Positions 2,230 through 28,698 are shown, numbered from the stretch's first letter. The stretch is 37,316 nucleotides of DNA from an uncultured Muribaculaceae bacterium (GCA_964415015.1 CAYPXM010000003.1:3004-40319), one strand, 5' to 3'. Notes: a model not told the origin generated them from the letters alone. Made by a program: numbers and translations.

Positions 2230-2644
2230 TCAAGATATGGAACTTATAAACCGTTTTTTTAGAATTGCTAATGCGATATACGAAGATCAATTGGATTTAG
2301 CAGCTAATAAATTAGATAGTAAAGCCTTGCGGGAAATAAAAGAAGATATTGCTGCATATGTTAGTAGTTTAAATGCGGTAAAACAAGAGATTACTAAACG
2401 CTTTGGTCAATTTGAATTAAATCGCTTAATGGCTTTAGTTGGTAAATCGAGAGAAGATTTTCAAGCTATTGTATTACAAAAACAAAATGAATACTTAGTA
2501 GAACAAAAATGTTATGAAGAAACAACTGAATATCATGCAAAGCAAGAAAATAAGCAAGATTATTTAAATGCTTTAAGGGATTATGAACTGTTTAATATGT
2601 ACTTTTTTGCTTGTTTCAACTATGAAACTAAGATAGTTAAATAA
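2222..2644 (+). CDS. hypothetical protein (140 aa, predicted helical), start overlaps the eno stop
   Basis: Long ORF. Its ATG lies inside ATGACTAA, which spans the eno stop codon (8-nt overlap). No recognisable motif. Confidence 0.7.
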   Translation: MTNQDMELINRFFRIANAIYEDQLDLAANKLDSKALREIKEDIAAYVSSLNAVKQEITKRFGQFELNRLMALVGKSREDFQAIVLQKQNEYLVEQKCYEETTEYHAKQENKQDYLNALRDYELFNMYFFACFNYETKIVK

Positions 2645-2650
2645 TTATAC

Positions 2651-2678
2651 TTGACAAATAGTAGTTTTTTAGTATAAT
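2651..2678 (+). promoter_or_regulatory. sigma-A-type promoter for the 2703 gene
   Basis: TTGACA at 2651-2656, 16-nt spacer, TATAAT at 2673-2678. Confidence 0.55.
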
Positions 2679-2702
2679 AAACTCTTGAAAAGTGGGGTTT
2701 TT

Positions 2703-3407
2703 ATGGAAAAAAGTCAAAAAAAAGTTAAGTTAGAAGTAGCTTACAAATTACAATCATTAATTGAATCTTATGCGAATGAGGAATTAATCTACGAGGCATC
2801 TCGTGCTATCGTGTATTATGAGTCAAATCAATTCAGTTGCGAGAACTTAAACATATTAGAACGTAAATTATTAGGTATTATTAAAAAATATCAAGAAAAC
2901 AATATTTGTGATAAGAGTTTTATTAATAATTTATTAGAAATAATTTCACAATGTCAAAAAGGATTACGTAATAGTGAGTGTTGGCATACTGAATATGCAG
3001 TATTACTAGAATTAGTATTAGTAATGATTAAAGACAAACCTAATCACATTTTAATGTGTGAAGAAATAAAGAAATTAAATCGTTTTAATCATCGTCGCTA
3101 TTTTGTTAAAGAAAATGGGGTTACTAAAGAAACTTTTACGGCTAAGAAACCGGAATGTTATACTAGTAAAAATAAAAAAGTATTTAAACAATTATGTTGG
3201 GATTGTCCATTGGAATCATTAACTCAATGTAAAAAGATGACTGATGGTGCTTTAAAAGCAATGATTAGCGATTATGATTTTATTACTGATGGATATCAAA
3301 TTGTAAATATTGCAAATGTTAGTCAAGAATTACTTGTTTCTAAATGTTCATTGTATGATGAATTTATAGCTAATAAAGAAGAAAAGTCTAAATATTTAGT
3401 TAAATAA
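2703..3407 (+). CDS. hypothetical protein with a Cys-rich C-terminal half
   Basis: The track ORF is 2685-3407 (TTG start). ATG at 2703 follows a GTGGGG RBS-like element. The product contains CWDCP...C and other Cys/His clusters. No family recognised. Confidence 0.7.
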   Translation: MEKSQKKVKLEVAYKLQSLIESYANEELIYEASRAIVYYESNQFSCENLNILERKLLGIIKKYQENNICDKSFINNLLEIISQCQKGLRNSECWHTEYAVLLELVLVMIKDKPNHILMCEEIKKLNRFNHRRYFVKENGVTKETFTAKKPECYTSKNKKVFKQLCWDCPLESLTQCKKMTDGALKAMISDYDFITDGYQIVNIANVSQELLVSKCSLYDEFIANKEEKSKYLVK

Positions 3408-3735: not shown

Positions 3736-3755
3736 CATTATAGTAGGTGAACGAT

Positions 3756-6062
3756 ATGAAGAAGAATAAGGGTTTTACTTTAGTTGAATTATTAGTTACA
3801 ATCGGTATCATTGCAGTTATTGGAGTAGTAATAAGTGTTAATATCGTAGGGGTAGTAAAGAAAAATAATCAACAAGAATATGAAGATTTTAAAAATAAAT
3901 TAACTAAGAGTGCCTGTGCTTTTGCCGATTTAAGTGATACATTAAAAAATTGTACTAATCGCTGCTTAGTAACGGTTCAAGAACTTATTGATGAAGGTTT
4001 ATTAGAAAAAAATATGATTAATCCTAAAACTAAAAAACCTTTAGGACCTCAAGAAACTATTCATGTTTGTCATGAAGATAAAGAAAAAGTTTGCTATTAT
4101 AATGAAGAAAATAATTATGACTTTTATGGTCCGGAAATAACCTATACAAAAAGTATTGGTAAATTAAATATTACTTTAAATGATGAAAGTAATTTAGCGG
4201 GTTATGTAATTTCTACAAGCAATACTAATCCTGGTACATATACAAACATTACCGGTAATACCCATAGTTTTAGTTATAATCCACCTGGACCAGGAACTTA
4301 CTATGTTTACGCGATAGATGAATATAATAATGTTTCTAAGAAAGATATTACCTTAGTAAATAGTGACTTTGATTTAGAAAAACCAAAAATTAAAGTTATC
4401 CTAAATTTAAATATTGCGGTAGTTACTATTACGGATAATTACAATCTAGCTGGTTATTTAATTAGCACTAGTAATCTAGAAAACGTTACTTATAATAATA
4501 TAACTGGTAAAAATGTTGTTGTAACTTATACTATGGCTGGACCAGGAACATTTTATGTATATGCTATAGATCAATTTGGTAATAAAGAAAAAGTACATTT
4601 TATTGCCACTGCAGCTAATTTTGATACCACACCTCCATTAATAAGTGTAAGTCCCGCAACAGCTCAAGCTTCAATAACATTTAACGATCAAAATGGTAGT
4701 GGTCTTGCAGGTATATTGGTTAATAAAGACGTAAATGATCCCGTTAATTATGAAGCTGCTTCGGGTCAAGTGTTAACGAAAAATTTTACTTTTAATGAAA
4801 CAAATACATATTATGCTCATGCGATAGATGTGGCAGGTAATCGTTCAACGAAATCTTTTAGTATCACTATTTGTCCCTATGCTCCAGGTACGACATGGAC
4901 TTTTAATAATCCACCAGAAAATTTAAAAAGCTTTACTTTCCCCTGTACCGGAACTTATAAATTGAAAGCTCAAGCCGGTAAAAGTGGCTCATGGCGATGG
5001 GGTTCTTGGGGAAATCCTGATTCGGTTTTTCCCATTGTCAATGGTTCTTTTGTAACCGGTGATTTTTACTTTTATAAAAATCAAGGAATCTATATCGGGG
5101 TTGGTGGTAATGGTGGAGATGGTTTTTATCAAGAGTATAGTGGATATGCTGAAACTGGAGCAGTAGGATATAATAATCCAAATGGTACTGTTTTAGGTCG
5201 TTCTGGTGGTGGTGGAGCTACTCATTTTACGACTAGTAATACTTTATATAATGGCTCAGATACTGGCTTAGTTTTATCAGCCCAAGGTGGTAATGGTAGT
5301 AATAATGGTGGCCTTGGTGGTGGTACTAATTATATAAAAAGTGTTCATAATGGGTATTCAAGTGTTAATCATAATATCGAAGGTGCCATAGATAGTAATG
5401 GATATGCCCAAATAATTTTTGTTGGTGAAGGTATTCCTTCAGTAAGTTACTGGGAATATGGTTATACAGGTGGAATGCAAACATTTACCGCTCCGAGTAA
5501 GGGAATATATAAATTTGAAGTATGGGGTGCTAAAGGTGGTATGTCATATTATATGGATTTAAGTACCGGAGATTGTTCATATCATGGCATCGACGCATTA
5601 AATGCAACTCTTAATAATAGTTTATATCCTGGCTATGCCCAAGGACAATTTAATCTAAATGCCGGTGAAACAGTTTATATTAATGTCGGTGGTGAAGGTG
5701 GCTCTGGGGTTAAAGTAGCTGATGGTGTTAGTATTTGCGGTGGAGCTACTGGTGGCGGTGGCTATAATGGTGGAATAAGTGGTACTAACTTTGCAAGCGG
5801 CTCTGGTGGTGCTTCAACTGTTGCCTTACAATCAGGTAATTATTCCACTACCTTATATAATTCAGGTAAATTATTAGTTGCATCAAAAGGTGGCATTGGA
5901 ATTAGAACAAATGATTATATTCATCATGACTTAGTAAGTCAAGGTGGTGGAGTTAATTATGTTAATACTAGCCATGCTAAATATGTCGGTGGATCATTAA
6001 TTAATGAAAATGTTACTAATAAAAAAAGTATTATTCGAGTATACTTAATACAAAATACTTAA
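3756..6062 (+). CDS. modular type IV pilin/pseudopilin-like protein (768 aa): prepilin class-III signal + pilin head + 3 Ig-like repeats + 2 glycine-rich modules
   Basis: ATG at 3756 follows an AGGTGA RBS (the track ORF starts at GTG 3747). The N-terminus MKKNKG|FTLVELLVTIGIIAVIGVV carries the G-F-T-L-x-E prepilin cleavage/methylation motif. Three repeats of about 80 aa end in Y.YAID..GN. Two Gly-rich modules carry GGNGG/GGGG tracts. Confidence 0.85.
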   Translation: MKKNKGFTLVELLVTIGIIAVIGVVISVNIVGVVKKNNQQEYEDFKNKLTKSACAFADLSDTLKNCTNRCLVTVQELIDEGLLEKNMINPKTKKPLGPQETIHVCHEDKEKVCYYNEENNYDFYGPEITYTKSIGKLNITLNDESNLAGYVISTSNTNPGTYTNITGNTHSFSYNPPGPGTYYVYAIDEYNNVSKKDITLVNSDFDLEKPKIKVILNLNIAVVTITDNYNLAGYLISTSNLENVTYNNITGKNVVVTYTMAGPGTFYVYAIDQFGNKEKVHFIATAANFDTTPPLISVSPATAQASITFNDQNGSGLAGILVNKDVNDPVNYEAASGQVLTKNFTFNETNTYYAHAIDVAGNRSTKSFSITICPYAPGTTWTFNNPPENLKSFTFPCTGTYKLKAQAGKSGSWRWGSWGNPDSVFPIVNGSFVTGDFYFYKNQGIYIGVGGNGGDGFYQEYSGYAETGAVGYNNPNGTVLGRSGGGGATHFTTSNTLYNGSDTGLVLSAQGGNGSNNGGLGGGTNYIKSVHNGYSSVNHNIEGAIDSNGYAQIIFVGEGIPSVSYWEYGYTGGMQTFTAPSKGIYKFEVWGAKGGMSYYMDLSTGDCSYHGIDALNATLNNSLYPGYAQGQFNLNAGETVYINVGGEGGSGVKVADGVSICGGATGGGGYNGGISGTNFASGSGGASTVALQSGNYSTTLYNSGKLLVASKGGIGIRTNDYIHHDLVSQGGGVNYVNTSHAKYVGGSLINENVTNKKSIIRVYLIQNT

Positions 6063-10082: not shown

Positions 10083-10481
10083 ATGAAAAATATTAATAAA
10101 AAAAAGATTATCATAATTATTGCTGGAGTAGTAGTATTAATAGGATTAGTAGTATCATTATTTCTAATATTTAAAAAGGATAGTAAAGATTACCAAAAAG
10201 ATCTAGAAACCGATATTAAAGTCTTAGTTGATAATTTCTATCAAAATATTTATTATGATCAAATGGATATAGAAACTTTAAAAAGTTTTAAAGATGAAGG
10301 AATTAAAATGACTTTATCAAGTTTAAAAATAGTAAATGATAACAAAGAAGATTTTATCAATGGCTTTGATGATACAAAATGTGATGAAGATAAAACATTT
10401 GTCTATATATATCCCAATAATGACTTTAAAAAAAGTGATTATAAAATAGAATATCATCTTGATTGTGGTGATTTTAAGTAA
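10083..10481 (+). CDS. membrane-anchored hypothetical protein with a two-Cys ectodomain
   Basis: 132 aa, GGAG RBS, N-terminal TM anchor. The ectodomain (...YQNIYY...MTLSSL...KCDEDKTFVYIY...YKIEYHLDCGD) resembles the juxtamembrane domain of the 25281-26717 protein. Confidence 0.65.
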   Translation: MKNINKKKIIIIIAGVVVLIGLVVSLFLIFKKDSKDYQKDLETDIKVLVDNFYQNIYYDQMDIETLKSFKDEGIKMTLSSLKIVNDNKEDFINGFDDTKCDEDKTFVYIYPNNDFKKSDYKIEYHLDCGDFK

Positions 10482-10498
10482 GCCGTTAAGGCTTTTTT
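10480..10498. terminator. bidirectional terminator between convergent genes
   Basis: AAGCC-GTTAA-GGCTT hairpin with flanking A/T runs. It overlaps the stop of the minus-strand gene. Confidence 0.55.
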
Positions 10499-10860
10499 AA
10501 TTGCTCTAATTCTTCTTGCATTTTTTTGATAACGCGTTTTAATAGTTCTAAATCATCATAATTGTCATCTTCTCGACTACTGTTGCAATTTGCACGTTTT
10601 TCGAGTGGTGGATTATTCATATAAGCACTTCCACCATTTTTATATTGTTTACTATTAATATTAATTGTATTTCCTTGTACTTTAGCTTCTAAAGCTTGTT
10701 GAACAGCACTATTAGCCTCTAATATTTGTGCAACGGTCATTAACCAGTTACCAATCGCATTTTGCTCATTTGCGGTTAAATCACCAATTAAAACGTAGCC
10801 AATAACTAAGCTGGCCAAGGTATATAATTTTGGATTAGGAACTCTATTATCATTATTCAT
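10486..10860 (-). CDS. hypothetical protein (124 aa)
   Basis: ORF with an AGAGG RBS. Hydrophobic/amphipathic N-terminal half (LASLVIGYVLIGDLTANEQNAIGNWLMTVAQILE) and an acidic/coiled C-terminus. No family assigned. Confidence 0.65.
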   Translation of the reverse strand: MNNDNRVPNPKLYTLASLVIGYVLIGDLTANEQNAIGNWLMTVAQILEANSAVQQALEAKVQGNTININSKQYKNGGSAYMNNPPLEKRANCNSSREDDNYDDLELLKRVIKKMQEELEQLKKP

Positions 10861-10968: not shown

Positions 10969-12948
10969 ATGCGTCGAGAAGATTTTTTTGAAAAAATAGA
11001 ATTATTAGTTAAAATGACTGGGGCTAAAATGGCTAATGGGGAAAACCTAATAGCAGAATTAGACGAAATTAAGGATGAGTTATCTGTTATAAAAGCAGAA
11101 AAAAAAGCCTTGAAAGCGGAGATGAATGAAGACCGTTATTTTGACGCTGCAGCAGAAATAGTTGATCGTAACCTAGTAATTGGTTTAAAAAAACAAATCA
11201 ATCGCATAAAAGAGGAAATTGAAGCAACTAATAATATACTAAATGAAAGTATTAAAGCTGAAGAACAATTAAATGTTGAATTATTCAGTGTAGAAAATGC
11301 CCTTAATAATGATAATAATTACATAAATAGTTTAGAACAAAGAATTAATAAATTAAGTAAGAGTGGAGAAAGTGAAGATTTTAATCATTATAATGATTCA
11401 CTTAGTATCGCTAAAGAAAACTATAAAGAAGAAAAAGATAAAGTTAATGAGTTAAATAAACAATATAAAGAAGTTTTAGAAACTATTGATCAGAAGACTA
11501 CTTTAGTTGAATCATTAAAAGAAAAGCTAGAAGATTTAAAACATAAATTAAAAGATATCAATTCTTCATTAGAAAATAAAGATGCTTATGTTAATGTAGA
11601 TTTAAAAGCATTAGATGATAGTAAAATTGCTATTTTTGATGAAAAAATAGACACTTTAGAAGAGAAAAAACTTAAAATAATAAATGATCCTGTATATATG
11701 GCCAATGAAATTAAAGAATCATTAAGCGATGATGATGTTATTGGTGCAATGAAAAAAACCAAAGAATTAATTAAAGTCGTTAGTAAATTGCCATTTATGG
11801 ATGAAGATGATAATGATAAATTAATTGAATTAAAAGCATCTTTAGTAAGTGAAAAAGATGAATTTGTTAAATACATTGAAAATAAACGATATGATGAAAT
11901 AAATACGGAAGTGTTAAGTGATCGAGTTGTTTATTTAAATAACGTTATAAGTACTATTAATGAAGAAATTGATCTTATATGTAAAAAAATAGCTCGTGTT
12001 GATAATGGTGGCTCTAACATGGCTACATTACTTAAAAAAGCAACTAATGATAAAGAAGCAATCGAAACTGACATAACTTTATATGAAAATATTTTAAGTA
12101 CTGAAGAACATATGCCAATCCGTCGTCGTAATGCTATTACGACAATACTAACTAAGAAAAATGATCAATTAAAAGCGATAAATAAAATAATTGAAGCATA
12201 TAAAACAGAAGAATTTCAATATTTAGAAGAGATATATAACTTAGAAAATAGTGACTTAGCGTTATTAAAAGCTAAAATACAAGTAATTGAAGACGAAAAA
12301 GAGAGTATTAATAAAGTAATTAGTAACTTAAAAAGTAAAAATAAAGATGTTTTAGCTGAAGAAAGCGATAAAGAAGTATTAAAGGAATTTGATGAAAAAA
12401 TAAAAGCCATTGATACGCGCTTAGAATTTAGTGAATCATTATCTAGTATTAAAAATGATATTGAACAATATTTTGGTGAACAAGCTGATTTAAATGAAGT
12501 TGTATTAGATACCATAGAAGAAAAAAAAGAGCCAGTTGAAGAAGATAATAAAGAAGCAAATGAAATAGTCTTTAAATCAATCGATGATATTTTAACTGCT
12601 AATGATGATTTAGTTAAAGAAGAAACAATAACTAAAGAAGAAGAAACTCCTGAATTAGAATTTGTTGATTTTGATGATGATAAGTTCTTAGAAATACCAG
12701 AATCAAACGTTGTTAAACTTGATGATATCTTGGAAAGTACAAGTAATTTTGAACCTTTATATGATAATATTGAAGAAGTAAAACCATTATTTGAAAAAGA
12801 ACCAACTGATTATCAATTTGAATCTGTAACCAGCTTTAATCTTCCACAATTTGAATTTCCAAATAATTTAGAAGAAGATCCTGAATTATTAGAAGTTATA
12901 GAAGTAACACCGATTATTGTTGAAGATAAAAATGGAGAAGGTGAATAA
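10969..12948 (+). CDS. large coiled-coil protein with an acidic C-terminal tail, hypothetical
   Basis: 659 aa, heptad-like and rich in K, E, L, I and N throughout. The last ~150 aa are strongly acidic (E/D-rich). GGGTG RBS. Confidence 0.75.
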   Translation: MRREDFFEKIELLVKMTGAKMANGENLIAELDEIKDELSVIKAEKKALKAEMNEDRYFDAAAEIVDRNLVIGLKKQINRIKEEIEATNNILNESIKAEEQLNVELFSVENALNNDNNYINSLEQRINKLSKSGESEDFNHYNDSLSIAKENYKEEKDKVNELNKQYKEVLETIDQKTTLVESLKEKLEDLKHKLKDINSSLENKDAYVNVDLKALDDSKIAIFDEKIDTLEEKKLKIINDPVYMANEIKESLSDDDVIGAMKKTKELIKVVSKLPFMDEDDNDKLIELKASLVSEKDEFVKYIENKRYDEINTEVLSDRVVYLNNVISTINEEIDLICKKIARVDNGGSNMATLLKKATNDKEAIETDITLYENILSTEEHMPIRRRNAITTILTKKNDQLKAINKIIEAYKTEEFQYLEEIYNLENSDLALLKAKIQVIEDEKESINKVISNLKSKNKDVLAEESDKEVLKEFDEKIKAIDTRLEFSESLSSIKNDIEQYFGEQADLNEVVLDTIEEKKEPVEEDNKEANEIVFKSIDDILTANDDLVKEETITKEEETPELEFVDFDDDKFLEIPESNVVKLDDILESTSNFEPLYDNIEEVKPLFEKEPTDYQFESVTSFNLPQFEFPNNLEEDPELLEVIEVTPIIVEDKNGEGE

Positions 12949-21811: not shown

Positions 21812-22867
21812 ATGGAAGAAAAATTAAGAAGTATATTAGATAATGCTAAGAATAAGTTATCTAATTGTACGAAAGAAGCTGATTTACTTAATATTAAAAG
21901 TGAATTACTTGGTAAAAATAGTGCATTACAAGAGCTTTTAACGGGGTTAAAAGATATGTCTATTGAAGATAAGAAAACATATGGATCAGTAATTAATAAT
22001 TTAAAAAATGAAATAAATGAGTTAATTACTAATAAAGCAAATGATATTGAACAAGCAAAAGTTAATGCTATTTTAGAAAAAGAAAGTGTTGATGTAACCT
22101 TACCGGCTACTAAAATAACTTCAGGAGCACCACATATTATCGAAAAAGTAATTGAGACTATTGAAGAAACTCTAATGAGTATGGGTTATGATGTATATGA
22201 TGGACCTGAAATTGAAGAAGATCGTTTTAATTTTGAATTATTAAATGTTCCTAAAGGACATCCGGCTAGAGATGCTCAAGATACTTTCTATGTTAAACGA
22301 GAAGAATTACTTCTTCGTAGTCAAACATCTGGGGTACAAGCCAGAGTAATGCTTGAAAATAATGGGGAGAAACCAATTAGAATGATTTGTCCTGGTAAAA
22401 CATATCGCCGGGATAGTGATGATGCTTCTCATAGTCATCAATTTACTCAAATTGAAGGATTATTAGTAGATAAAACAGCTAGTCTTACTGATTTAAAAGG
22501 AACGTTTGATATTATTGCTAAAAAGGTATTTGGGGATAAGGTTGAAACTCGTTTTCGTCCTAGTTATTATCCTTTTACTGAACCATCAGTTGAAACCGAT
22601 GTAAGTTGTTTCTCTTGTGGTGGTAGTGGTTGTCCAATATGTAAAAATACTGGTTGGATTACTATTAGTGGGGCTGGTATAGTACATCCTGATGTTCTAA
22701 GAAAATGTGGATATGATCCAGAAATATGGCATGGCTTTGCCTTTGGTTTTGGAGCAGAGCGAATGGCAATGTTAAAATATGGTATCAATGATATAAGAGC
22801 ATTCTATGAAAATGATTTAAGAGCAAATGCATTATTTGATCGAAAGGATAGTGATAATAATGATTAG
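21812..22867 (+). CDS. pheS: phenylalanine--tRNA ligase alpha subunit
   Basis: Class II motifs (HPARD..DTFY, FRPSYYPFTEPS, GFAFGFGAERMAML). ATG at 21812 follows a GGAGGG RBS (the track ORF starts at GTG 21797). Confidence 0.96.
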   Translation: MEEKLRSILDNAKNKLSNCTKEADLLNIKSELLGKNSALQELLTGLKDMSIEDKKTYGSVINNLKNEINELITNKANDIEQAKVNAILEKESVDVTLPATKITSGAPHIIEKVIETIEETLMSMGYDVYDGPEIEEDRFNFELLNVPKGHPARDAQDTFYVKREELLLRSQTSGVQARVMLENNGEKPIRMICPGKTYRRDSDDASHSHQFTQIEGLLVDKTASLTDLKGTFDIIAKKVFGDKVETRFRPSYYPFTEPSVETDVSCFSCGGSGCPICKNTGWITISGAGIVHPDVLRKCGYDPEIWHGFAFGFGAERMAMLKYGINDIRAFYENDLRANALFDRKDSDNND

Positions 22868-25232
22868 TTTAAATTGGGTTAAAGATTATCTTGATTTACA
22901 AAATGTTGATCTAAAAAAGTTAGCTGAAGAAACCACCAAAACTGGTGTTAATATTGAAAAAGTAATTACTAGTCATATCGATCACTTAGTAATTGGAGAA
23001 GTAACTGAAGTTATCGACCATCCTAATAGTGATCACCTACATATTTGCCAAGTTAATGTTGGTAGTGAGTCACTACAAATTGTATGTGGAGCCCCAAATG
23101 TAAGAAAAGATTTAAAAGTAATAGTGGCACTACCTGGTGCAGTATTACCTGGTGATTTTGTAATAAAAGTTGGTAAAATAAGAGATGTTGAATCAAATGG
23201 AATGATATGTGCTTTATTTGAACTTGGATTAGAAGAAAAAACGGAAGAAAACTATAATAAAGGAATTCATGAACTTGATAGTAATGCACCAGTTGGAAGT
23301 GACGCGCTTGCTTATTTAGGATTTGATGATACTTTTTATGAAGTAGATATTCATAAACATCGTAATAATGATTGTTATTATCATATTGGTTTTGCTTATC
23401 TTTTAGGAACTATTCTTAATAAAGAAGTTAAATTACCAGAAATGACTTACAGCGAAATAACTGATAATGTTAATAACTATATTAAATTAGATGTTAAAAC
23501 AAATAAATGCCCATATTATATTGGTAAAATGGTTAAAAATGTGGTTATTAAAGAATCCCCTGAGTTTATTAAAAAGAGACTATTAGCAGTAGGGATGAGA
23601 CCTATTAATAATGTCGTTGATATTAGTAACTATGTCATGCTTGAATATGGTCAACCAATGCATTTCTTTGATTATGATAAATTAGGTGGTAATGTATTAG
23701 TTAGAGATGCAATAGATACTGAAGTAATAAAAACATTAGATGGTGTAGAGAGAATATTAACTAAAGATGATATTGTAATTACTAATGGCGATAAACCAGT
23801 ATGTATTGCAGGTGTTATGGGTGGATTTAATACTGAAATAACTGATGATACTAAAACTATCTTTATAGAAAGTGCTATTTTTGATCCTATTAGTATTAGA
23901 AATACAGCTAATCGACTTAATTTAAAAAGTGAAGCATCAATTCGTTATGGTAAAGGATTAAACTATGAATTTACTGAGAATGCAATAAATAGAGCTTGTT
24001 ATTTACTAGAGAAATATGCTGATGCAACTATCTTAACCGATACAGTAATGCATGATAACTTAGATAAAACACCAAAAGTTATTACATTTAGTCCATTGAG
24101 TGTTAATAGTATCCTAGGTATTAATATAACTCCAGAAGATATGGCTAAAGAATTAAGAAGATTACATTTTAATTTTGATTATAAAGATGGTAATTTTATT
24201 GCTACTATTCCTAATTATCGTTTAGATATGGAATTAAATGTAAATGATATAGCAGAAGAAATAGGTCGGTTATATGGATATCATAATTTAATATCTACTA
24301 CTCCAGTATTACCTGTTAAAAAAGGAGAATATAAAGGAGATGTAGGATTAAAAAAACAAATATCTAAACGATTACGTTCGCTTCTTTTAAACGAAGTTAA
24401 GACATATACTTTAACAAGCATGGAAATGTCTAATACTTTTAAATATGATGATAAAGATGGTTTATTATTACCAAATCCAATGAGTAATGATAAATCAGTG
24501 ATAAGAAATACAATCTTACCATCATTAATAAATGTGTTTAACTATAATAAAGCAAGAAAAGTAAATGATATAAATATATATGAAATAAGTAAAACTTATG
24601 ATAGTAATTTAGTAGAAGATACTAAAATAGCTTTACTATTAAGTGGAAATTATATTGTTAATAACTGGCAACATAGTGGTCTTAAAGTAGATTTCTTTCT
24701 AGTTAAAGGCATAGTGGAAAACTTACTTGATTATCTTGGTTATAAGAATAGATATAGTTTTGTTAAAAATAATATTAATGATTTACATCCTGGTATAGGG
24801 GCTAATATAATATTAGATAAAGAAAATATTGGTATTATTGGTCGTGTTCATACGAATATTACTAAAGATGAAGTTTATGTAGTAGAATTATCATTAAATG
24901 CCTTAAATAAGCCCGTTAAAGCATTAAAGTATAAAGAACCGAATAAATACCCAGAAATTAAGAAAGACATGGCATTTGTGGTTAAAAATGATATTACAGC
25001 CAATGACATCATAAATGAAATAAAACATAGTGGTGGTAGATTATTAACTAATATTGATATCTTTGATGTATATACTGGTACTAATGTATTAGAAGGAACA
25101 AAATCAATTGCCTTTAATTTAACATTTAGTGACACTAGTAGAACATTAAGTGATGAAGAAGTAACTAAAGTATTTAATAATATAATTAGTAATGTTACAA
25201 CTAAATTTAATGCTGAATTAAGAGATAAATAG
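22860..25232 (+). CDS. pheT: phenylalanine--tRNA ligase beta subunit
   Basis: MISLNWVKDYLDL N-terminus with the tRNA-binding, B3/4, B5 and FDX-ACB regions recognisable. The ATG overlaps the pheS stop (the track ORF starts at 22827). Confidence 0.96.
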   Translation: MISLNWVKDYLDLQNVDLKKLAEETTKTGVNIEKVITSHIDHLVIGEVTEVIDHPNSDHLHICQVNVGSESLQIVCGAPNVRKDLKVIVALPGAVLPGDFVIKVGKIRDVESNGMICALFELGLEEKTEENYNKGIHELDSNAPVGSDALAYLGFDDTFYEVDIHKHRNNDCYYHIGFAYLLGTILNKEVKLPEMTYSEITDNVNNYIKLDVKTNKCPYYIGKMVKNVVIKESPEFIKKRLLAVGMRPINNVVDISNYVMLEYGQPMHFFDYDKLGGNVLVRDAIDTEVIKTLDGVERILTKDDIVITNGDKPVCIAGVMGGFNTEITDDTKTIFIESAIFDPISIRNTANRLNLKSEASIRYGKGLNYEFTENAINRACYLLEKYADATILTDTVMHDNLDKTPKVITFSPLSVNSILGINITPEDMAKELRRLHFNFDYKDGNFIATIPNYRLDMELNVNDIAEEIGRLYGYHNLISTTPVLPVKKGEYKGDVGLKKQISKRLRSLLLNEVKTYTLTSMEMSNTFKYDDKDGLLLPNPMSNDKSVIRNTILPSLINVFNYNKARKVNDINIYEISKTYDSNLVEDTKIALLLSGNYIVNNWQHSGLKVDFFLVKGIVENLLDYLGYKNRYSFVKNNINDLHPGIGANIILDKENIGIIGRVHTNITKDEVYVVELSLNALNKPVKALKYKEPNKYPEIKKDMAFVVKNDITANDIINEIKHSGGRLLTNIDIFDVYTGTNVLEGTKSIAFNLTFSDTSRTLSDEEVTKVFNNIISNVTTKFNAELRDK

Positions 25233-25252: not shown

Positions 25253-25279
25253 AAAAAAATAATGGCAACGCCATTATTT
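25253..25279 (-). terminator. rho-independent terminator of the minus-strand operon
   Basis: 10-bp stem AAATAATGGC/GCCATTATTT. The A-run on the plus strand is a T-run on the minus strand. It lies immediately after the stop at 25281. Confidence 0.65.
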
Positions 25280-25280
25280 A

Positions 25281-26717
25281 TTAATTTGTAACTGTTCTTG
25301 TTTTACCAGTTTTTACCCAACCACTTAAAGTAGTTTGAGAATTCCATGTATATGTAATAGTTAAAGTACATTTAGTCCATTTCTTTGCTTTAACAATTTC
25401 ATCATTATTAGTTTTATAACAATATTCACCATTTAAAGCAAATCCAGTAGGACAAGTATATCCAATAAATTCTTTATTTTGTGCTTTAGTGCAAGTATTA
25501 TTACTCTTATTATAAGTATAACTTGAATCACTACAATAGAAAGTATCATCAGTCTTAACTGTTTTATAACATATCATTGAAGCACCACTACCAGAAGAAA
25601 GGTATCCAGTTGGACAACTATATACTTTAGCAGTACTATATGATGGAGTACCATATTCAGTACTTGATGTATAACATGTTGAACCACCATTATTACTTCC
25701 ACCGTTAGGACAGTCATATGTAGTTACTATATTTCTTTTATATATACGATAAGTATAAGTAATAACTATACCAGGACAATTAGATGAACTAGTACATACA
25801 TATTTACTAGATGAACCAGTTAATTCATACTTAGTAGTATCATTACCAGTTAATCCTCTTGTAGATGATGTAGATCCAGCACCATACCATGCTCCATAAC
25901 CTTTACTACTACGAGCAGGATATGAACCATTAACATTTTTAGCACAACTATTATTTACATCTCCACCATTAGGACAACTTACAGTAGTAGCGCCATTACT
26001 TTCAATAACCGCAGCATATTCAGTTTTAGTATCACCAACAACTCGAACTGGAGTCATAGTAAGTACTTTACTTTCTGAATATTGTTTTGTGGCATTAATC
26101 TTAGTATCTTCAGTATATTTAACACAGTTAGTTCCTACTAATGAATAACCAGCCTCACAAATATAACTAGTATCTTTAATAACTCTTTCTTTCTTATATT
26201 GATATTGAACATAACTAGTTTGTTTTGTAGTTGTTTCTTCCTTCTTAGTTGTTTCTTCTTTTTTAGTAGTACTTTTCTTATCAGTAGTACAAACGCAATT
26301 ATTATTTGTACATACATTATAACATCCAATTGTATCTAAGATAAAATCAGACTCATTACCACAAGTTAAATCAATTCGTAATTGATATTCTTGATCAGTA
26401 ATTTTAGTTACTTTTACATAACTTTTATTTACATCACAAGCTTTATTATCTAAATCTTTTAATTCTCTTATAATATTTTTTTCAATCATCTCACGAAGAG
26501 TCATACTAGTAGAATCACCAATATTTTTTGGTAAACGATCTACGGTATAATAACTCTTAGCGGCATTTTGAAAACTATTAAAGTTATCACCAAAATTAGA
26601 ATTATTTGAAATGTTTTTATTTGGCATTGGAAATATCCATACTAGTACAAGTACAAATACAAAAATGGTAAGTGCACTAATAGCTAATTTTAACCAATTA
26701 ATTCTTTTTGTTTCCAT
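25281..26717 (-). CDS. membrane-anchored, cysteine-module-rich surface protein, hypothetical (478 aa)
   Basis: N-terminal TM anchor (WLKLAISALTIFVFVLVLVWIF), a juxtamembrane two-Cys domain, a TKKEET-repeat linker, then at least 7 short two-Cys modules such as YSCPTGYLSSGSGASMICYKT and YTCPTGFALNGEYCYKT. AGGGGGA RBS. Confidence 0.8.
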   Translation of the reverse strand: METKRINWLKLAISALTIFVFVLVLVWIFPMPNKNISNNSNFGDNFNSFQNAAKSYYTVDRLPKNIGDSTSMTLREMIEKNIIRELKDLDNKACDVNKSYVKVTKITDQEYQLRIDLTCGNESDFILDTIGCYNVCTNNNCVCTTDKKSTTKKEETTKKEETTTKQTSYVQYQYKKERVIKDTSYICEAGYSLVGTNCVKYTEDTKINATKQYSESKVLTMTPVRVVGDTKTEYAAVIESNGATTVSCPNGGDVNNSCAKNVNGSYPARSSKGYGAWYGAGSTSSTRGLTGNDTTKYELTGSSSKYVCTSSSNCPGIVITYTYRIYKRNIVTTYDCPNGGSNNGGSTCYTSSTEYGTPSYSTAKVYSCPTGYLSSGSGASMICYKTVKTDDTFYCSDSSYTYNKSNNTCTKAQNKEFIGYTCPTGFALNGEYCYKTNNDEIVKAKKWTKCTLTITYTWNSQTTLSGWVKTGKTRTVTN

Positions 26718-26738
26718 AATTTATATCCCCCTGATTTT

Positions 26739-28124
26739 CTACTTAACAATGGTATAAGAAATACCATCTTCATCAGTATATATTCCTGTATCAGCATCAT
26801 AGATTCCAGATTGTTTTTGTGTGACTATAGCATTAGCATCTATTACAGCTCCATTTAAGTAACCTGATAACATATTTAATTCGGTTTCACAAATTGGATC
26901 ATTTAATTCTGCAAATAATTTATCAATAGTATAATTATGATTAACACTAGTAGTAGTTCCATCTTCACTAACAATCGAAACAGTATTTGTTATTTTCATC
27001 TTTGGTGCAATAATATTAGCAAGTGGTTCCATAGCTGATAATTTAATAATATATAATACTCTTTCAGCGGAAGAATTATATTGAGTAAATAAGGAATGTT
27101 TTTCATTATTTACTAATACATCGTCAATTCTAGTTGCAGTAGTTGAATAGTTTTTTTCTTCAACAACCAAATTATTTAAAGCATATATATATTCTTTAGC
27201 ACCTTCATAACGAATCGTTTCGTTATCACTAAGTAATTTATCTTGAATAGCGTCTAAATATTCTAATTCTTCTTTAGCAACAGTATCTTCAACTAATAAA
27301 CTAGAAGTTTCAAAGTTTCCAATATCATAACCAGCTGTATTTTCAATTCCCATTAAATTATTAATTTGAGTAATTTCTTTATTTACTTCAGCATTAACGA
27401 TAGTTGAAACATATGTGTTTGCTTCATCAAATGTTATTGATTTATCATTACTACGATTAAAGAATTTCATCATATCAATTAATTCTTCTTTGGTAATATC
27501 CATTTCACCAGTATTTATTAATTCAGCTTGTTGATTGATTAAATCATTGATATTAATTGAGGCAATTTCTTCGACATCAATTACTTCTAATTCAATATCT
27601 TCACTTACTGGAGTAATACCATCTTCATCATTTATATGTGGAGTAATAATATTATTTTTACCACAACCTTTAAGCAAGGTTATCGCTAATAAAGATAGAG
27701 CACATATTGCAGATACTCCTGTAAAAATTAATAATCCGTTTAAAATAATTTCTTTCTTATCAGATTTATTATCAGTTTCTTCTTGGTTGTCATTATTAAT
27801 CTCATCAGTATTAATGCTAATAAATTCTTTACATTCTTCATCGTTAATTATTTCAAGTATTAACTTACCATACTCATCATTTAATGCATTAAATGTTGCA
27901 TCATCAATTGAATTATTATTAATATCATTAATATCTTTATCACAATTTTTTACAAAAATATTAAATAATTTAACATCATTAATTAAATTAGTATTATCAA
28001 TGTTATTAATAATGTTATTAGTAATAATTTTAGAATCCTTATCAATTTTTTTAAGAACTACTTTCTTAACTGTAGTAATTCTTCCAATTAATATATTTTT
28101 TTCTTCACTTGTAATCTTTTCCAT
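26739..28124 (-). CDS. bitopic membrane protein, hypothetical (461 aa)
   Basis: ATG at 28124 follows an AAGGGGGA RBS (the track ORF extends to 28184). One central TM (LNGLLIFTGVSAICALSLLAITLL) separates a ~145-aa N-terminal region from a ~290-aa acidic C-terminal region. Confidence 0.75.
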   Translation of the reverse strand: MEKITSEEKNILIGRITTVKKVVLKKIDKDSKIITNNIINNIDNTNLINDVKLFNIFVKNCDKDINDINNNSIDDATFNALNDEYGKLILEIINDEECKEFISINTDEINNDNQEETDNKSDKKEIILNGLLIFTGVSAICALSLLAITLLKGCGKNNIITPHINDEDGITPVSEDIELEVIDVEEIASININDLINQQAELINTGEMDITKEELIDMMKFFNRSNDKSITFDEANTYVSTIVNAEVNKEITQINNLMGIENTAGYDIGNFETSSLLVEDTVAKEELEYLDAIQDKLLSDNETIRYEGAKEYIYALNNLVVEEKNYSTTATRIDDVLVNNEKHSLFTQYNSSAERVLYIIKLSAMEPLANIIAPKMKITNTVSIVSEDGTTTSVNHNYTIDKLFAELNDPICETELNMLSGYLNGAVIDANAIVTQKQSGIYDADTGIYTDEDGISYTIVK

Positions 28125-28155
28125 AAAAAATCCCCCTTTTGTGAATATGGGGGTT

Positions 28156-28184
28156 ATTTTATCATAGACATAATAAATTGTCAA
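28156..28184 (-). promoter_or_regulatory. sigma-A-type promoter of the minus-strand two-gene operon
   Basis: On the minus strand: TTGACA, 17-nt spacer, TG-A-TAAAAT. It lies about 30 nt upstream of the 28124 start. Confidence 0.6.
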
Positions 28185-28341: not shown

Positions 28342-28698
28342 GGGGCAGACTTGGTTTCGACAGGGTATTGTTACATATGATGGCAAGTGGTAGAGATACC
28401 TTAAATCTAAATTAAATATAAACGGAGAAAATAATTTTTCTTTCGCTCCATCATTTGCTTAATCTAATTTAAGTAAGGAGCACCTTAATATGTTTATATC
28501 TTTGGGATATATTTAGGATAATAAACAAGGATTATACTATTTGACTGTTTAGAGCCAAATAAAGAATAATATCTAATCTAGTTTATTAATAGGTGTGCCA
28601 GATCCGGTTGATAAATGAATTAATAATTCTGACTAAACTTGTAGAAATTGTATGATGATGTATCTTGGACAGGAGTTCAATTCTCCTCTGCTCCACCA
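28342..28698 (+). ncRNA. ssrA: tmRNA (SsrA)
   Basis: 5' GGGGCAGACTTGGTTTCGACAGGG and a 3' tRNA-like end GGACAGGAGTTCAATTCTCCTCTGCTCCACCA, with acceptor pairing GGGGCAG/CTGCTCC. The internal tag reading frame is GGA...GCT TAA (28424-28462). Confidence 0.93.

What the first reader, a model, noticed from the sequence alone, without database searches (positions are those of the whole stretch)
25281..28184. Self-contained two-gene operon encoding a cysteine-module surface protein and a bitopic membrane partner, between pheT and ssrA
A near-consensus promoter (TTGACA-17-TGATAAAAT, minus strand, 28156-28184) drives a 461-aa single-pass membrane protein and, 21 nt downstream, a 478-aa membrane-anchored protein. 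The unit ends at a 10-bp-stem terminator.

The second protein has four parts:
- a signal-anchor;
- the juxtamembrane two-Cys domain shared with ORF 10083;
- a CYNVCTNNNCVC knot and a charged TKKEET-repeat linker;
- at least seven short modules, each bracketed by one Cys pair and often of the form Y-x-C-P-x-G-(Y/F)...C-Y-K-T (YICEAGYSLVGTNCVKY, VSCPNGGDVNNSCAKN, YVCTSSSNCPG, YDCPNGGSNNGGSTCYT, YSCPTGYLSSGSGASMICYKT, FYCSDSSYTYNKSNNTCTK, YTCPTGFALNGEYCYKT).

Disulfide-stapled mini-modules like these are unusual for an anaerobic low-GC Gram-positive. I cannot assign either protein to a family. Together with the modular prepilin, they point to an uncharacterised cell-surface apparatus.
Basis: partly seen in the sequence, partly recalled or inferred. 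Interest (0 to 1): 0.6.

Follow-up and report, generated by a model that had tools for sequence, protein, structure and literature searches.

The report
Pilin-derived cysteine-hairpin stalk protein with partner
The two genes are real and travel together. The cysteine-rich one is an offshoot of type IV pilins that has lost the pilin cleavage signal, carries a stalk of small two-cysteine hairpins, and is kept by almost every member of an order of small-genome gut bacteria, though its function is untested.

Summary
In detail: the promoter, two genes 21 nt apart, shared terminator, membrane anchors and seven Cys-pair modules are all present.

The interpretation needs revising. The "juxtamembrane two-Cys domain" is a type IV pilin head (profile-profile 99.6%, E 3e-24 against genuine prepilins of related genomes). 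The pilin signal is degenerate: Arg replaces Gly-1 and Lys replaces Glu5, and Pfam N_methyl does not match. The protein therefore probably stays membrane-anchored.

Its stalk is a family-specific 25-28-residue repeat, Y-x-C-P-x-G-Y-x-L-x-G-x-x-C. This resembles the EGF/CCP central hairpin only at motif level.

The family was found in 189 of 201 genomes of the order (it includes GTDB RF39 members such as Candidatus Coprovivens), with one copy in this genome.

The upstream partner evolves fast, but its ectodomain is homologous across two of the three clades. Its membrane attachment varies: J-like bitopic, lipoprotein or secreted. It matches no known fold.

No DsbA, DsbB or VKOR gene was found in 19 related genomes.

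Function is inferred, not shown: most likely a membrane-anchored adhesive or display stalk plus a helper.

I class it as a new variant of the modular pilin design. The scan had already noted a homologue in another genome (e1-3771099).

The parts
28156..28184 (-). Sigma-70-type promoter, TTGACA-17 nt-TG-extended TAAAAT
   Evidence: 11 of 12 matches with TG, the best minus-strand site. It lies 32 nt upstream of the gene A start codon.
26739..28124 (-). Gene A, the partner (461 aa). It has a helical cytoplasmic N-terminal region, one TM, a lipobox-like Cys and an extracytoplasmic alpha/beta domain.
   Evidence: Homologous upstream genes occur in 7 of 7 close relatives. Its ectodomain is homologous to the upstream genes of the largest clade (hhalign 94%, E 1e-7).
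27675..27743 (-). Gene A transmembrane helix (aa 128-150)
   Evidence: AF2 helix 128-150; hydrophobic stretch in the sequence.
27663..27674 (-). Lipobox-like L-K-G-C (aa 151-154) at the outer end of the TM
   Evidence: C154 is conserved in at least 90% of clade partners. Orthologues L042 and L044 carry a canonical lipoprotein signal, LTGC|ASN. lsp and lgt are present in the genome.
26892..27557 (-). Gene A ectodomain core (aa 190-411), confidently modelled, with no known fold match
   Evidence: AF2 pLDDT mostly 80-95 (range 67-95) over this span. Foldseek against PDB gives a best E of 0.15. It holds the near-invariant C412 just after it.
26718..26738 (-). 21-nt intergenic gap carrying the gene B RBS (AGGGGGA)
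   Evidence: A gap of about 20 nt is conserved in relatives.
25281..26717 (-). Gene B (478 aa): pilin-derived stalk protein built of Cys-hairpin repeats
   Evidence: There are 199 homologues. It was found in 189 of 201 genomes of the order and is single copy in this genome.
26628..26717 (-). Degenerate class III (prepilin-type) signal plus alpha1-N transmembrane helix (aa 1-30). R5 sits at the pilin Gly-1 position and K10 at the Glu5 position.
   Evidence: hhalign alignment to genuine prepilins. No N_methyl hit. 77 of 121 homologues keep Gly at -1 and 78 of 121 keep Asp/Glu at +5.
26325..26597 (-). Type IV pilin head (alpha1-C plus beta-sheet, C94-C119 pair), aa 41-131
   Evidence: hhalign of A3 against A8: 99.6%, E 3.3e-24. 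A canonical-pilin profile scores this region best in the whole genome, E 8.6e-19. AF2 gives helix 42-56 and strands 69-130.
26289..26324 (-). Four-Cys knot, GCYNVCTNNNCVC (aa 132-143)
   Evidence: The knot varies between relatives from 0 to 4 Cys and is modelled at low confidence.
26220..26288 (-). Thr/Lys/Glu-rich linker with TKKEET x2 (aa 144-166)
   Evidence: pLDDT below 50. Replaced by Asn-rich linkers in relatives.
25389..26219 (-). Beta-rich stalk with seven two-Cys hairpin modules (aa 167-443)
   Evidence: AF2 models it as nearly all beta, pLDDT mostly 75-94 (range 55-94). C187, C198, C368 and C383 are invariant in 30 sequences.
25284..25388 (-). Conserved C-terminal segment, ...Y-x-W-x-S...L-x-G-W-x-x-T-G-K-T-R-T (aa 444-478), including the lone C450
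   Evidence: Near-invariant Y456, W458, G466, W467, T470, G471 and T473.
25257..25279 (.). Bidirectional intrinsic terminator shared with the convergent pheT
   Evidence: 10-bp stem, 3-nt loop, T-runs on both strands.
10083..10481 (+). Related gene: 132-aa stand-alone pilin-head module behind a plain signal-anchor (ORF 10083)
   Evidence: hhalign of A3 against this protein: 91%, E 9e-7 over 115 columns.
3747..6062 (+). Related gene: canonical modular prepilin (GFTLVE signal, Pfam N_methyl) with an ALK/LTK-type glycine-rich domain
   Evidence: Matched by the canonical pilin profile, E 7.8e-13.

Best explanation
Shown:
- Gene B encodes a derived type IV pilin-like protein. Its N-terminus is a pilin 'lollipop': a hydrophobic alpha1 helix plus a two-Cys globular head, homologous to the genuine prepilins of this lineage.
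- The class III signal has decayed. In this genome Arg replaces the obligatory Gly/Ala at -1 and Lys replaces Glu5.

Inferred:
- The prepilin peptidase cannot cut it, so it stays in the membrane as an N-in signal-anchored protein and is not polymerised into a filament.
- From the pilin head it projects a flexible linker, a rod-like beta stalk made of single-disulfide hairpin repeats (Y-x-C-P-x-G-Y-x-L-x-G-x-x-C) and a strongly conserved C-terminal tip.
- The stalk length is set by repeat number: 7 modules here, up to 17 in relatives.
- Gene A, translated from the same mRNA, supplies an extracytoplasmic alpha/beta domain held at the membrane surface. In this clade it is probably lipid-anchored after the TM via Cys154. 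It acts on or with the stalk protein, as a folding or assembly helper or as a co-receptor.
- The pair most likely forms a membrane-anchored adhesive or display structure that is a core feature of this order of small-genome gut Bacilli.
For: Pilin origin:
- A profile of the N-terminal module finds canonical prepilins in related genomes (E down to 1e-20). The fetched hits begin KG|FTLVELL, and all 11 tested carry Pfam N_methyl.
- Profile-profile comparison gives 99.6%, E 3.3e-24 over 122 columns.
- A profile built only from canonical pilins scores the gene B head as the best hit in the window's own genome (8.6e-19).
- A tree separates the family from canonical pilins by one branch with 100/99 support.

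Degenerate signal:
- The alignment places R5 at Gly-1 and K10 at Glu5.
- There is no N_methyl hit in gene B or in 9 other members.
- The requirement that the leader ends in Gly or Ala is taken from PMC10191384.
- Four homologues carry an extra C-terminal TM anchor, which does not fit a filament subunit.

Stalk:
- AF2 gives pLDDT 77, all beta after residue 168.
- There are 1124 hairpin modules in 121 homologues. The Cys spacing is 11 in 895 of them and the period is 25-28 residues.

Core status: 189 of 201 genomes and 94 of 98 genera of the order.

Partner:
- A conserved adjacent gene with a gap of about 20 nt, also where the flanking genes differ (uvrA instead of pheT).
- The ectodomain is homologous across clades (94%, E 1e-7).
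- The anchoring mode varies (J-like bitopic, lipoprotein, secreted) while the ectodomain is kept.
Against: - Function is entirely inferred.
- 64% of the family keep Gly at -1 and Asp at +5, so many members might still be processed. Prepilin peptidase is near-universal in the order (199 of 201).
- Adhesins are usually variable and multi-copy. This gene is single copy in this genome, with strongly conserved ends, which fits a housekeeping envelope role as well.
- One clade of homologues has no adjacent partner.
- Disulfides are assumed, yet no DsbA, BdbD, DsbB or VKOR gene was found in 19 genomes of the family.
- Neither model has a significant structural neighbour.
Confidence: 0.6

Rival explanations
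1. Gene B is still a working minor pilin. It would be processed at or near the degenerate site and built into type IV pili, probably as the tip subunit that starts assembly and displays the Cys-hairpin stalk. This would make it a true modular pilin like S. sanguinis PilB and PilC.
For: - It has a pilin head and an alpha1 helix.
- The genome encodes a prepilin peptidase, assembly ATPases and 6-8 canonical pilins.
- Tip-capping pilins characteristically lack Glu5 (PMC10191384).
- 77 of 121 family members keep Gly at -1.
Against: - In this genome position -1 is Arg. Leaders are described as ending invariably in Gly or Ala (PMC10191384).
- Charged residues at +4, +5 and +9 (K-D...K in most members) interrupt alpha1-N.
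- No family member passes N_methyl.
- The gene is not linked to the pilus machinery, which lies on another contig.
- Some members have a second, C-terminal TM anchor.
Confidence: 0.2
2. The protein is not an adhesin. It is a structural envelope component, a membrane-to-wall tether or spacer, whose conserved C-terminal tip binds a self component. The Cys pairs may remain reduced or bind metal in the anaerobic gut rather than forming disulfides.
For: - The gene is near-universal in the order and single copy in this genome.
- The conserved termini flank a middle of variable length.
- No canonical thiol oxidase was found in 19 related genomes.
Against: - Two Cys per module, placed at the base of a predicted beta-hairpin, match disulfide-stapled hairpins (the EGF/CCP motif and the single-disulfide insect peptide 6ee9). 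They do not match a four-ligand metal site.
- Stalk length varies 2-4 fold between relatives (4-17 modules), which is awkward for a spacer of fixed geometry.
Confidence: 0.12
3. One reading: the two proteins belong to no known family and, together with the prepilin at 3756, mark a wholly uncharacterised cell-surface apparatus.
For: - There are no curated family hits for either protein.
- There are no significant structural neighbours.
- The partner fold is unmatched.
Against: - The anchor module is a type IV pilin module at E 3e-24, so gene B sits inside a known superfamily.
- The prepilin at 3756 is an ordinary modular pilin of a kind common in this lineage.
- The two loci are 19 kb apart, with housekeeping genes between them.
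Confidence: 0.05

Closest known systems
Modular type IV pilins of monoderm bacteria, e.g. Streptococcus sanguinis PilB (vWA module) and PilC (lectin module) (PMC8179133, PMC9934059)
   Same: An N-terminal pilin module (alpha1 helix plus a small globular head) is followed by a large C-terminal functional part. It occurs in a Bacillota lineage with type IV pilus machinery. The presumed role is adhesion.
   Different: - The class III signal is degenerate: no Gly/Ala at -1, no Glu5, no N_methyl match.
- The gene is not in a pilus locus.
- It has a dedicated non-pilin partner gene.
- The grafted part is a family-specific two-Cys hairpin repeat, not a widespread adhesive domain.
- It is near-universal in the order, and single copy in this genome.
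Canonical and giant modular prepilins of the same lineage (e.g. the window's ORF 3747-6062, and L063-L074 from related genomes)
   Same: The head domain is homologous, with the same two Cys and the same motif: AAK-x-YF...LPK...TL-x-x-L...D...C...S-x-V-x-V-T-K...Y...L-x-C. Many are also Cys-rich (17-44 Cys).
   Different: They keep KG|FTLVELL signals and N_methyl. None of the 12 examined has the Y-x-C-P-x-G-Y hairpin repeat. They are multi-copy and variable, and they lack the partner gene.
EGF-like / cEGF (PF12662) and CCP/Sushi (PF00084) modules, and single-disulfide EGF-subdomain-like peptides (insect stress-response peptide, PDB 6ee9)
   Same: The motif Y-x-C-x-x-G-Y-x-L-x-G-x-x-x-C is the central beta-hairpin of CCP modules and the C-terminal hairpin of EGF modules. 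The repeat profile hits CCP proteins (E 4e-7 summed) and 6ee9 (E 1.5e-4). A few long homologues cross the cEGF whole-protein threshold by summed score.
   Different: The repeat has only 2 Cys per 25-28 residues, against 6 per ~40 in EGF and 4 per ~60 plus an invariant Trp in CCP. Matches cover 12-16 residues. Gene B itself has no Pfam hit. The resemblance is at motif level; common descent is not shown.
Bacterial lipoproteins and J-domain membrane proteins (for the partner)
   Same: Orthologues of the partner carry a canonical lipoprotein signal (L042, L044) or an N-terminal J-like domain before the TM (L017, L018, L031-L047). The window's partner has L-K-G-C at the outer end of its TM.
   Different: The window's partner has about 127 cytoplasmic residues before the TM, which is far too long for a normal lipoprotein signal. 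The J-like domains lack the HPD motif, and the window's N-terminal region shows no J similarity.

Membership tests
Type IV pilin (prepilin with class III signal peptide, Pfam PF07963 / IPR012902) | Hydrophilic leader peptide ending in Gly or Ala (the cleavage site) | tested here: not met
   hhalign places Arg5 at the Gly-1 position. The definition is from PMC10191384. 77 of 121 homologues do keep Gly.
Type IV pilin (prepilin with class III signal peptide, Pfam PF07963 / IPR012902) | About 20-25 mainly hydrophobic residues after the cleavage site (alpha1-N), often with Glu5 | tested here: inconclusive
   A hydrophobic helix is present (aa 11-29; AF2 helix 8-28). Position +5 is Lys, and in most homologues +4, +5 and +9 are K, D and K.
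Type IV pilin (prepilin with class III signal peptide, Pfam PF07963 / IPR012902) | Match to the N_methyl / TIGR02532 profile | tested here: not met
   No hit for gene B at E <= 1. No hit in 9 further family members, including the most pilin-like ones. The control worked: all 11 canonical pilins of relatives hit.
Type IV pilin (prepilin with class III signal peptide, Pfam PF07963 / IPR012902) | Lollipop architecture: alpha1-C packed on a small beta-sheet head, homologous to known pilins | tested here: met
   hhalign 99.6%, E 3.3e-24. HMMER E 8.6e-19 with a canonical-pilin profile. AF2 shows a helix plus four strands. Foldseek gave only a weak local pilin hit (ComZ, probability 0.21).
Type IV pilin (prepilin with class III signal peptide, Pfam PF07963 / IPR012902) | Cleavage by prepilin peptidase and polymerisation into a filament | not testable with these tools
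   The peptidase and ATPases exist in the genome. Processing needs an experiment.
Modular pilins (S. sanguinis PilB/PilC type) | Pilin module fused to a C-terminal functional module | tested here: met
   Pilin module aa 1-131, then linker, stalk and tip aa 132-478.
Modular pilins (S. sanguinis PilB/PilC type) | The grafted module is a domain also found outside pilus biology, with a known binding activity | tested here: not met
   No Pfam or NCBIfam domain. The hairpin repeat resembles EGF/CCP only at motif level. It was not found in 12 canonical modular pilins.
Modular pilins (S. sanguinis PilB/PilC type) | Encoded in the pilus locus and incorporated into pili | tested here: not met
   Locus part only. 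The gene lies between pheT and ssrA, while the pilus ATPase and peptidase are on another contig. Incorporation into pili is not testable here.
EGF-like / cEGF (PF12662) | About 40-residue module with six Cys forming three disulfides; profile score above threshold | tested here: not met
   Two Cys per 25-28-residue repeat. Gene B has no hit. Two long homologues reach 29-30 bits, against a cut-off of 26.6, only by summing fragments that cover profile positions 5-20.
CCP / Sushi (PF00084) | About 60-residue module with four Cys (I-III, II-IV) and an invariant Trp | tested here: not met
   Only the 12-16-residue central motif aligns. The repeat period is 25-28 residues and the consensus has no Trp.
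Bacterial lipoprotein (partner, gene A) | Lipobox [LVI][ASTVI][GAS]C at the end of a short N-terminal signal peptide, with Lgt and Lsp present | tested here: inconclusive
   L-K-G-C154 follows the TM, and the Cys is conserved in at least 90% of clade partners. lgt and lsp are present. Orthologues L042 and L044 have a canonical signal. Here, however, the n-region is about 127 residues and position -2 is Lys.
J-domain protein (partner orthologues) | Four-helix J domain with an HPD tripeptide | tested here: not met
   Pfam DnaJ hits on orthologues are weak or faint in two and unmarked in one. The sequences lack HPD. Gene A itself has no DnaJ similarity.

The most novel reading that the evidence does not exclude
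A type IV pilin has been converted into a permanently membrane-anchored surface organelle that is part of the core gene set of a whole order of reduced-genome gut Bacilli. It works as an obligate two-protein unit. The fast-evolving partner would be the dedicated factor that folds, oxidises or covalently holds the roughly ten-disulfide stalk, through the single conserved ectodomain Cys and the unpaired Cys seen in 94% of stalk proteins. This would operate in a lineage in which none of the four searched Dsb/VKOR families was found. It would be both a new route of pilin evolution, from filament subunit to anchor, and a new way of making extracytoplasmic disulfides in anaerobic Firmicutes.
Probability: 0.2. 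Interest if true: 0.7.

Novelty: new variant of a known kind. Interest (0 to 1): 0.5.

Why it matters
RF39-type Bacilli are common, uncultured members of human and animal gut communities. Their genomes are about 1 Mb, and almost nothing is known about how they interact with hosts or other cells.

This two-gene unit is one of the few lineage-specific surface features that nearly all of them keep, so it is a good candidate for whatever contact function defines their lifestyle.

Three further points matter:
- It shows that pilin modules can lose their processing signal and be reused as plain membrane anchors. Annotation pipelines that look only for the N_methyl signal will miss such cases.
- It defines a compact, abundant two-Cys hairpin repeat that no curated library holds.
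- It raises a concrete question: how do these anaerobes, without recognisable Dsb or VKOR genes, fold proteins with 20-55 cysteines outside the cell?

Tried and rejected
- Pfam and NCBIfam on both proteins gave nothing above threshold.
- A word-indexed homologue search for the partner found only itself. An exhaustive HMMER profile search found just 10 cluster representatives. The partner's wider family emerged only from gene neighbourhoods and profile-profile comparison.
- Foldseek found no significant match for the gene B model against PDB (best E 0.099). Against the viral library it gave one nominal hit (E 2e-4) with TM-score 0.07, so nothing meaningful. The partner model against PDB found no significant match. 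The long rod-like model attracts generic beta-rich hits (class II fusion proteins, tail fibres), which I disregard.
- A profile search of PDB sequences with the N-terminal module gave only E of about 1 to a geopilin.
- The search for related loci with the diverse alignment A3 failed for lack of a conserved block. It was rerun with the closer set A4.
- I tested whether an intermolecular disulfide shows up as matched Cys parity between stalk and partner. The signal is mixed: 5 of 7 close pairs fit and 1 clearly does not. I keep this only as a hint.
- The downstream gene in L053 has the same architecture (long N-terminal region, TM, G-C) but no detectable homology to the partner.
- Co-occurrence with prepilin peptidase is uninformative, because both are near-universal in the order.
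- I searched for Thioredoxin_4, DSBA, DsbB and VKOR genes in 19 genomes of the family. None reached the family cut-off (one sub-threshold Thioredoxin_4 fragment, 20.8 bits against a cut-off of 23.2).


Full report
**1. Observation**

The region holds two minus-strand genes.
- Gene A runs 28124..26739 and encodes 461 aa from the ATG. The mechanical ORF list extends it to a TTG at 28184, which lies inside the promoter.
- Gene B runs 26717..25281 and encodes 478 aa.
- The two are separated by exactly 21 nt, and each is preceded by a G-rich ribosome-binding site.
- The promoter TTGACA-17-TG-n-TAAAAT at 28184..28156 is the best minus-strand match in the region, at 11/12 with an extended -10. Promoter-like sites as such are no more frequent than in shuffled AT-rich sequence (36 against 39).
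- The 10-bp-stem hairpin at 25257-25279 has T-runs on both sides and also serves the convergent pheT (22827..25232).
- The tmRNA gene lies at 28342-28698.

Gene B has 21 Cys:
- the pair C94/C119;
- a four-Cys knot (132, 136, 141, 143);
- seven pairs, 6-15 residues apart (187/198, 248/258, 308/314, 336/348, 368/383, 395/409, 422/433);
- a lone C450.

The motif Y-x-C-[PESDT]-x-[GS] occurs five times; none of 20000 shuffles reached that count.

**2. What gene B is**

Curated libraries give nothing, but the protein has at least 199 homologues in metagenomes. The few that are named come from 'Bacilli bacterium' and 'Candidatus Coprovivens'. Gilroy et al. place the latter in GTDB order RF39, family CAG-1000 (PMC8035907).
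- In whole-genome searches, 189 of 201 genomes and 94 of 98 genera of the window's order carry a homologue.
- The window's own genome (810 kb, 72% complete) has one copy.
- In a class-wide sample, the N-terminal module was found in all 34 genomes of the window's family and in only 2 of 265 other genomes.
- The two outside genomes have canonical prepilins in the four loci fetched from them (L071, L072 and L077).

That class-wide search gave the decisive lead. Many genomes had up to 10-11 extra, weaker matches at the start of ORFs of 119-1320 aa.
- I fetched fifteen of these. They begin with textbook class III signals (KG|FTLVELL...).
- They continue with the same head motif as gene B: AAK-x-YF...LPK...TL-x-x-L...D...C...S-x-V-x-V-T-K...Y...L-x-C.
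- All eleven tested carry Pfam N_methyl.
- Profile-profile comparison of the gene B family's N-terminal module with these pilins gives 99.6% probability, E 3.3e-24 over 122 columns.
- A profile built only from the canonical pilins scores the gene B head as the best hit in the window's own genome (E 8.6e-19). This is ahead of that genome's own 6-8 canonical pilins, including the 771-aa prepilin at 3747-6062.

The 'juxtamembrane two-Cys domain' is therefore a type IV pilin head, and C94/C119 is the usual pilin disulfide pair.

**3. The signal is degenerate**

The alignment puts gene B's Arg5 at the pilin Gly-1 position, Ile6 at +1 and Lys10 at Glu5. Class III leaders are described as ending invariably in Gly or Ala, and Glu5 is common but not universal (PMC10191384).
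- Across 121 family members, 77 keep Gly at -1 and 78 keep Asp or Glu at +5, in a motif G|(I/F)-x-W-K-D-(I/L)-(I/L)-(I/V)-K.
- No member passes N_methyl, not even the most pilin-like ones (EEKRG|LTIKDLLIRL).
- In a tree of N-terminal modules, the family is separated from canonical pilins by a single branch (100/99). The window's clade is a well-supported subclade.
- Four homologues have a second, C-terminal TM anchor.

I read this as a pilin lineage that has left, or is leaving, the filament. In this genome it most probably remains an N-in, uncleaved membrane protein. This step is inferred, not shown.

**4. The stalk**

AlphaFold2 with a 30-sequence alignment gives mean pLDDT 77.
- The model has a TM helix (8-28) and a helix plus four strands for the head.
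- The knot and linker (132-166) are disordered.
- From residue 168 it is an almost purely beta, elongated structure, which explains the low pTM of 0.29.

Family-wide I counted 1124 hairpin modules.
- The consensus is G-S-T-T-Y-T-C-P-S-G-Y-T-L-N-G-T-K-C-T-K-T.
- The Cys-Cys spacing is 11 in 895 of them and 15 in 133.
- The period is mostly 25-28 residues.
- The median is 9 modules per protein and the maximum 17.
- The window's protein is a short form, with 4 strict and 3 degenerate modules.

A profile of the module hits the central Y-x-C-x-x-G-Y-x-L-x-G motif of CCP/Sushi modules (summed E 4e-7). It also hits a 25-residue single-disulfide insect peptide with an EGF-subdomain-like hairpin (6ee9, E 1.5e-4). 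The alignments cover only 12-16 residues. A few long homologues cross the Pfam cEGF whole-protein threshold by summed fragments. With 2 Cys per 25-28 residues, the module is neither an EGF nor a CCP domain; it is a minimal hairpin that looks like their shared core.

The motif is absent from 12 canonical modular pilins of related genomes and from the window's own prepilin, so it marks this family. After the head, the most conserved part is the C-terminal 35 residues...Y-x-W-x-S...L-x-G-W-x-x-T-G-K-T-R-T. This is the obvious candidate for the working tip.

**5. The partner**

Gene A has four parts:
- a helical N-terminal region of about 127 residues;
- one TM (128-150);
- L-K-G-C154;
- an ectodomain.

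A word-based search found only itself, and an exhaustive profile search found only ten cluster representatives.

Gene neighbourhoods show more.
- All seven close homologues of gene B examined have a homologous gene about 20 nt upstream (BLASTP 2e-23 and 1e-17). This includes loci flanked by uvrA rather than pheT, so the pair moves as a unit.
- In the largest clade (VG|INWKD), 17 of 19 loci have an upstream gene of 411-595 aa at a gap of 6-32 nt. The other two are cut by contig ends.
- These upstream genes are homologous to gene A in the ectodomain (hhalign 94%, E 1.1e-7, 187 columns).

Their membrane attachment differs:
- most have an N-terminal J-like domain without HPD, then a TM;
- L042 and L044 have a canonical lipoprotein signal (LTGC|ASN);
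- L048 and L049 have a plain secretory signal.

In the window's clade, the Cys just after the TM is conserved in at least 90% of members, and lgt and lsp are present. Lipid modification is therefore plausible despite the very long n-region.

The ectodomain core (190-411) is modelled confidently (pLDDT mostly 80-95) as helices plus a three-stranded sheet. It has no significant structural neighbour.

A third clade of gene B homologues (RG|LTIKD) sits alone among housekeeping genes, without this partner.

**6. Cysteine chemistry**

114 of 121 family members have an odd number of Cys. The partner has a near-invariant single Cys near the end of its ectodomain (C412). A stalk-partner disulfide is therefore conceivable, but pairwise parity is only partly consistent with it.

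Pfam models for Thioredoxin_4 (BdbD-type), DSBA, DsbB and VKOR found nothing above threshold in the 19 genomes of the family that were searched. They did ring in the control genomes. How these Cys-rich pilins and stalks are oxidised, if they are, is unexplained.

**7. Mechanism, with status**

Shown:
- the operon anatomy;
- the pilin ancestry of the anchor;
- loss of the signal hallmarks;
- the repeat architecture;
- order-wide conservation;
- co-conservation and ectodomain homology of the partner.

Inferred:
- N-in topology, with the ectodomain outside;
- no cleavage by the prepilin peptidase in this genome;
- disulfide-stapled hairpins forming a rod that holds the conserved tip away from the membrane;
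- the partner acting outside the membrane as a helper or co-receptor;
- adhesion or contact as the purpose.

The main rival is that the protein is still a tip-located minor pilin. Tip subunits lack Glu5, and the peptidase is present in 199 of 201 genomes. I give this 0.2.

**8. Comparison and novelty**

The closest described kind is the modular pilin (PilB and PilC of S. sanguinis; PMC8179133, PMC9934059). This scan has repeatedly met giant modular pilins in RF39-like Bacilli. A first-stage note on another genome (e1-3771099) describes a homologue of this very pair: 'pilin-like segment', 'paired with a lipoprotein'.

What is different here:
- the decayed signal;
- the dedicated partner;
- the family-specific hairpin repeat;
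- the core-gene distribution.

I therefore class it as a new variant of a known kind, of moderate interest. It is not a new apparatus, but it is an uncatalogued, lineage-defining surface system with a clear set of experiments attached.

Noticed in passing
window 10083-10481 (+): The 132-aa ORF 10083 is a stand-alone pilin-head module (two Cys) behind a Lys-rich plain signal-anchor with no prepilin motif. It is a second, independent case in this genome of a pilin head without a class III signal (hhalign 91%, E 9e-7).
   Followed up: partly
window 3747-6062 (+): This canonical modular prepilin (GFTLVELL, Pfam N_methyl) carries an ALK/LTK-type glycine-rich domain (PF12810, E 8e-10) and repeated ~85-aa segments. 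It sits between two unassigned ORFs and rnr-smpB, far from the pilus machinery, which is on contig C10.
   Followed up: partly
19 genomes of the window's family (genome search): No Thioredoxin_4/BdbD, DSBA, DsbB or VKOR gene was found in any of the 19 genomes searched. Yet their pilins and pilin-like proteins carry 17-55 cysteines. The source of extracytoplasmic disulfides, if there are any, is unexplained.
   Followed up: partly
Homologues P0086, P0088, P0091, P0094 (alignment A2, columns 900-954): Four homologues of gene B have an extra acidic segment and a second, C-terminal transmembrane helix. Both ends of their stalk would then be membrane-anchored.
   Followed up: no
121 homologues of gene B; partner C412: 94% of the stalk proteins have an odd number of cysteines, and the partner ectodomain keeps one near-invariant Cys. 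This may mean an intermolecular disulfide or a free thiol. The pairwise parity test was inconclusive.
   Followed up: partly
L053 6684-8072 (+), immediately downstream of a clade-3 homologue: This 462-aa gene has the same layout as the window's partner: a cytoplasmic region of about 110 aa, a TM, then ...SLHG-C-GKK. It has no detectable homology to the partner, and it lies downstream instead of upstream.
   Followed up: partly
L019 5585-7978 (+): In one distant relative the upstream position holds two genes. One is a 411-aa protein with a better-scoring DnaJ-type domain (still without HPD). The other is a separate 378-aa single-TM protein, as if the J-like and ectodomain parts were split.
   Followed up: no
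Partner proteins, C-terminus (alignment A7, last columns): Partners from both clades end in a similar tail (...S-L-S/T-K, here ...Y-T-I-V-K) with a terminal Lys. I found no explanation for it.
   Followed up: no
window 10969-12948 (+), 2222-3407 (+), 10486-10860 (-): Several ORFs in the window (659, 140, 240 and 124 aa) have no Pfam match at E <= 0.001.
   Followed up: no
G000 contig C10: 18945-20090 (+), 20397-20726 (-), 2872-3693 (-): The genome's type IV filament machinery lies on a different contig from the window. It comprises two T2SSE-family ATPases and an A24 prepilin peptidase. Prepilin peptidase is present in 199 of 201 genomes of the order.
   Followed up: partly
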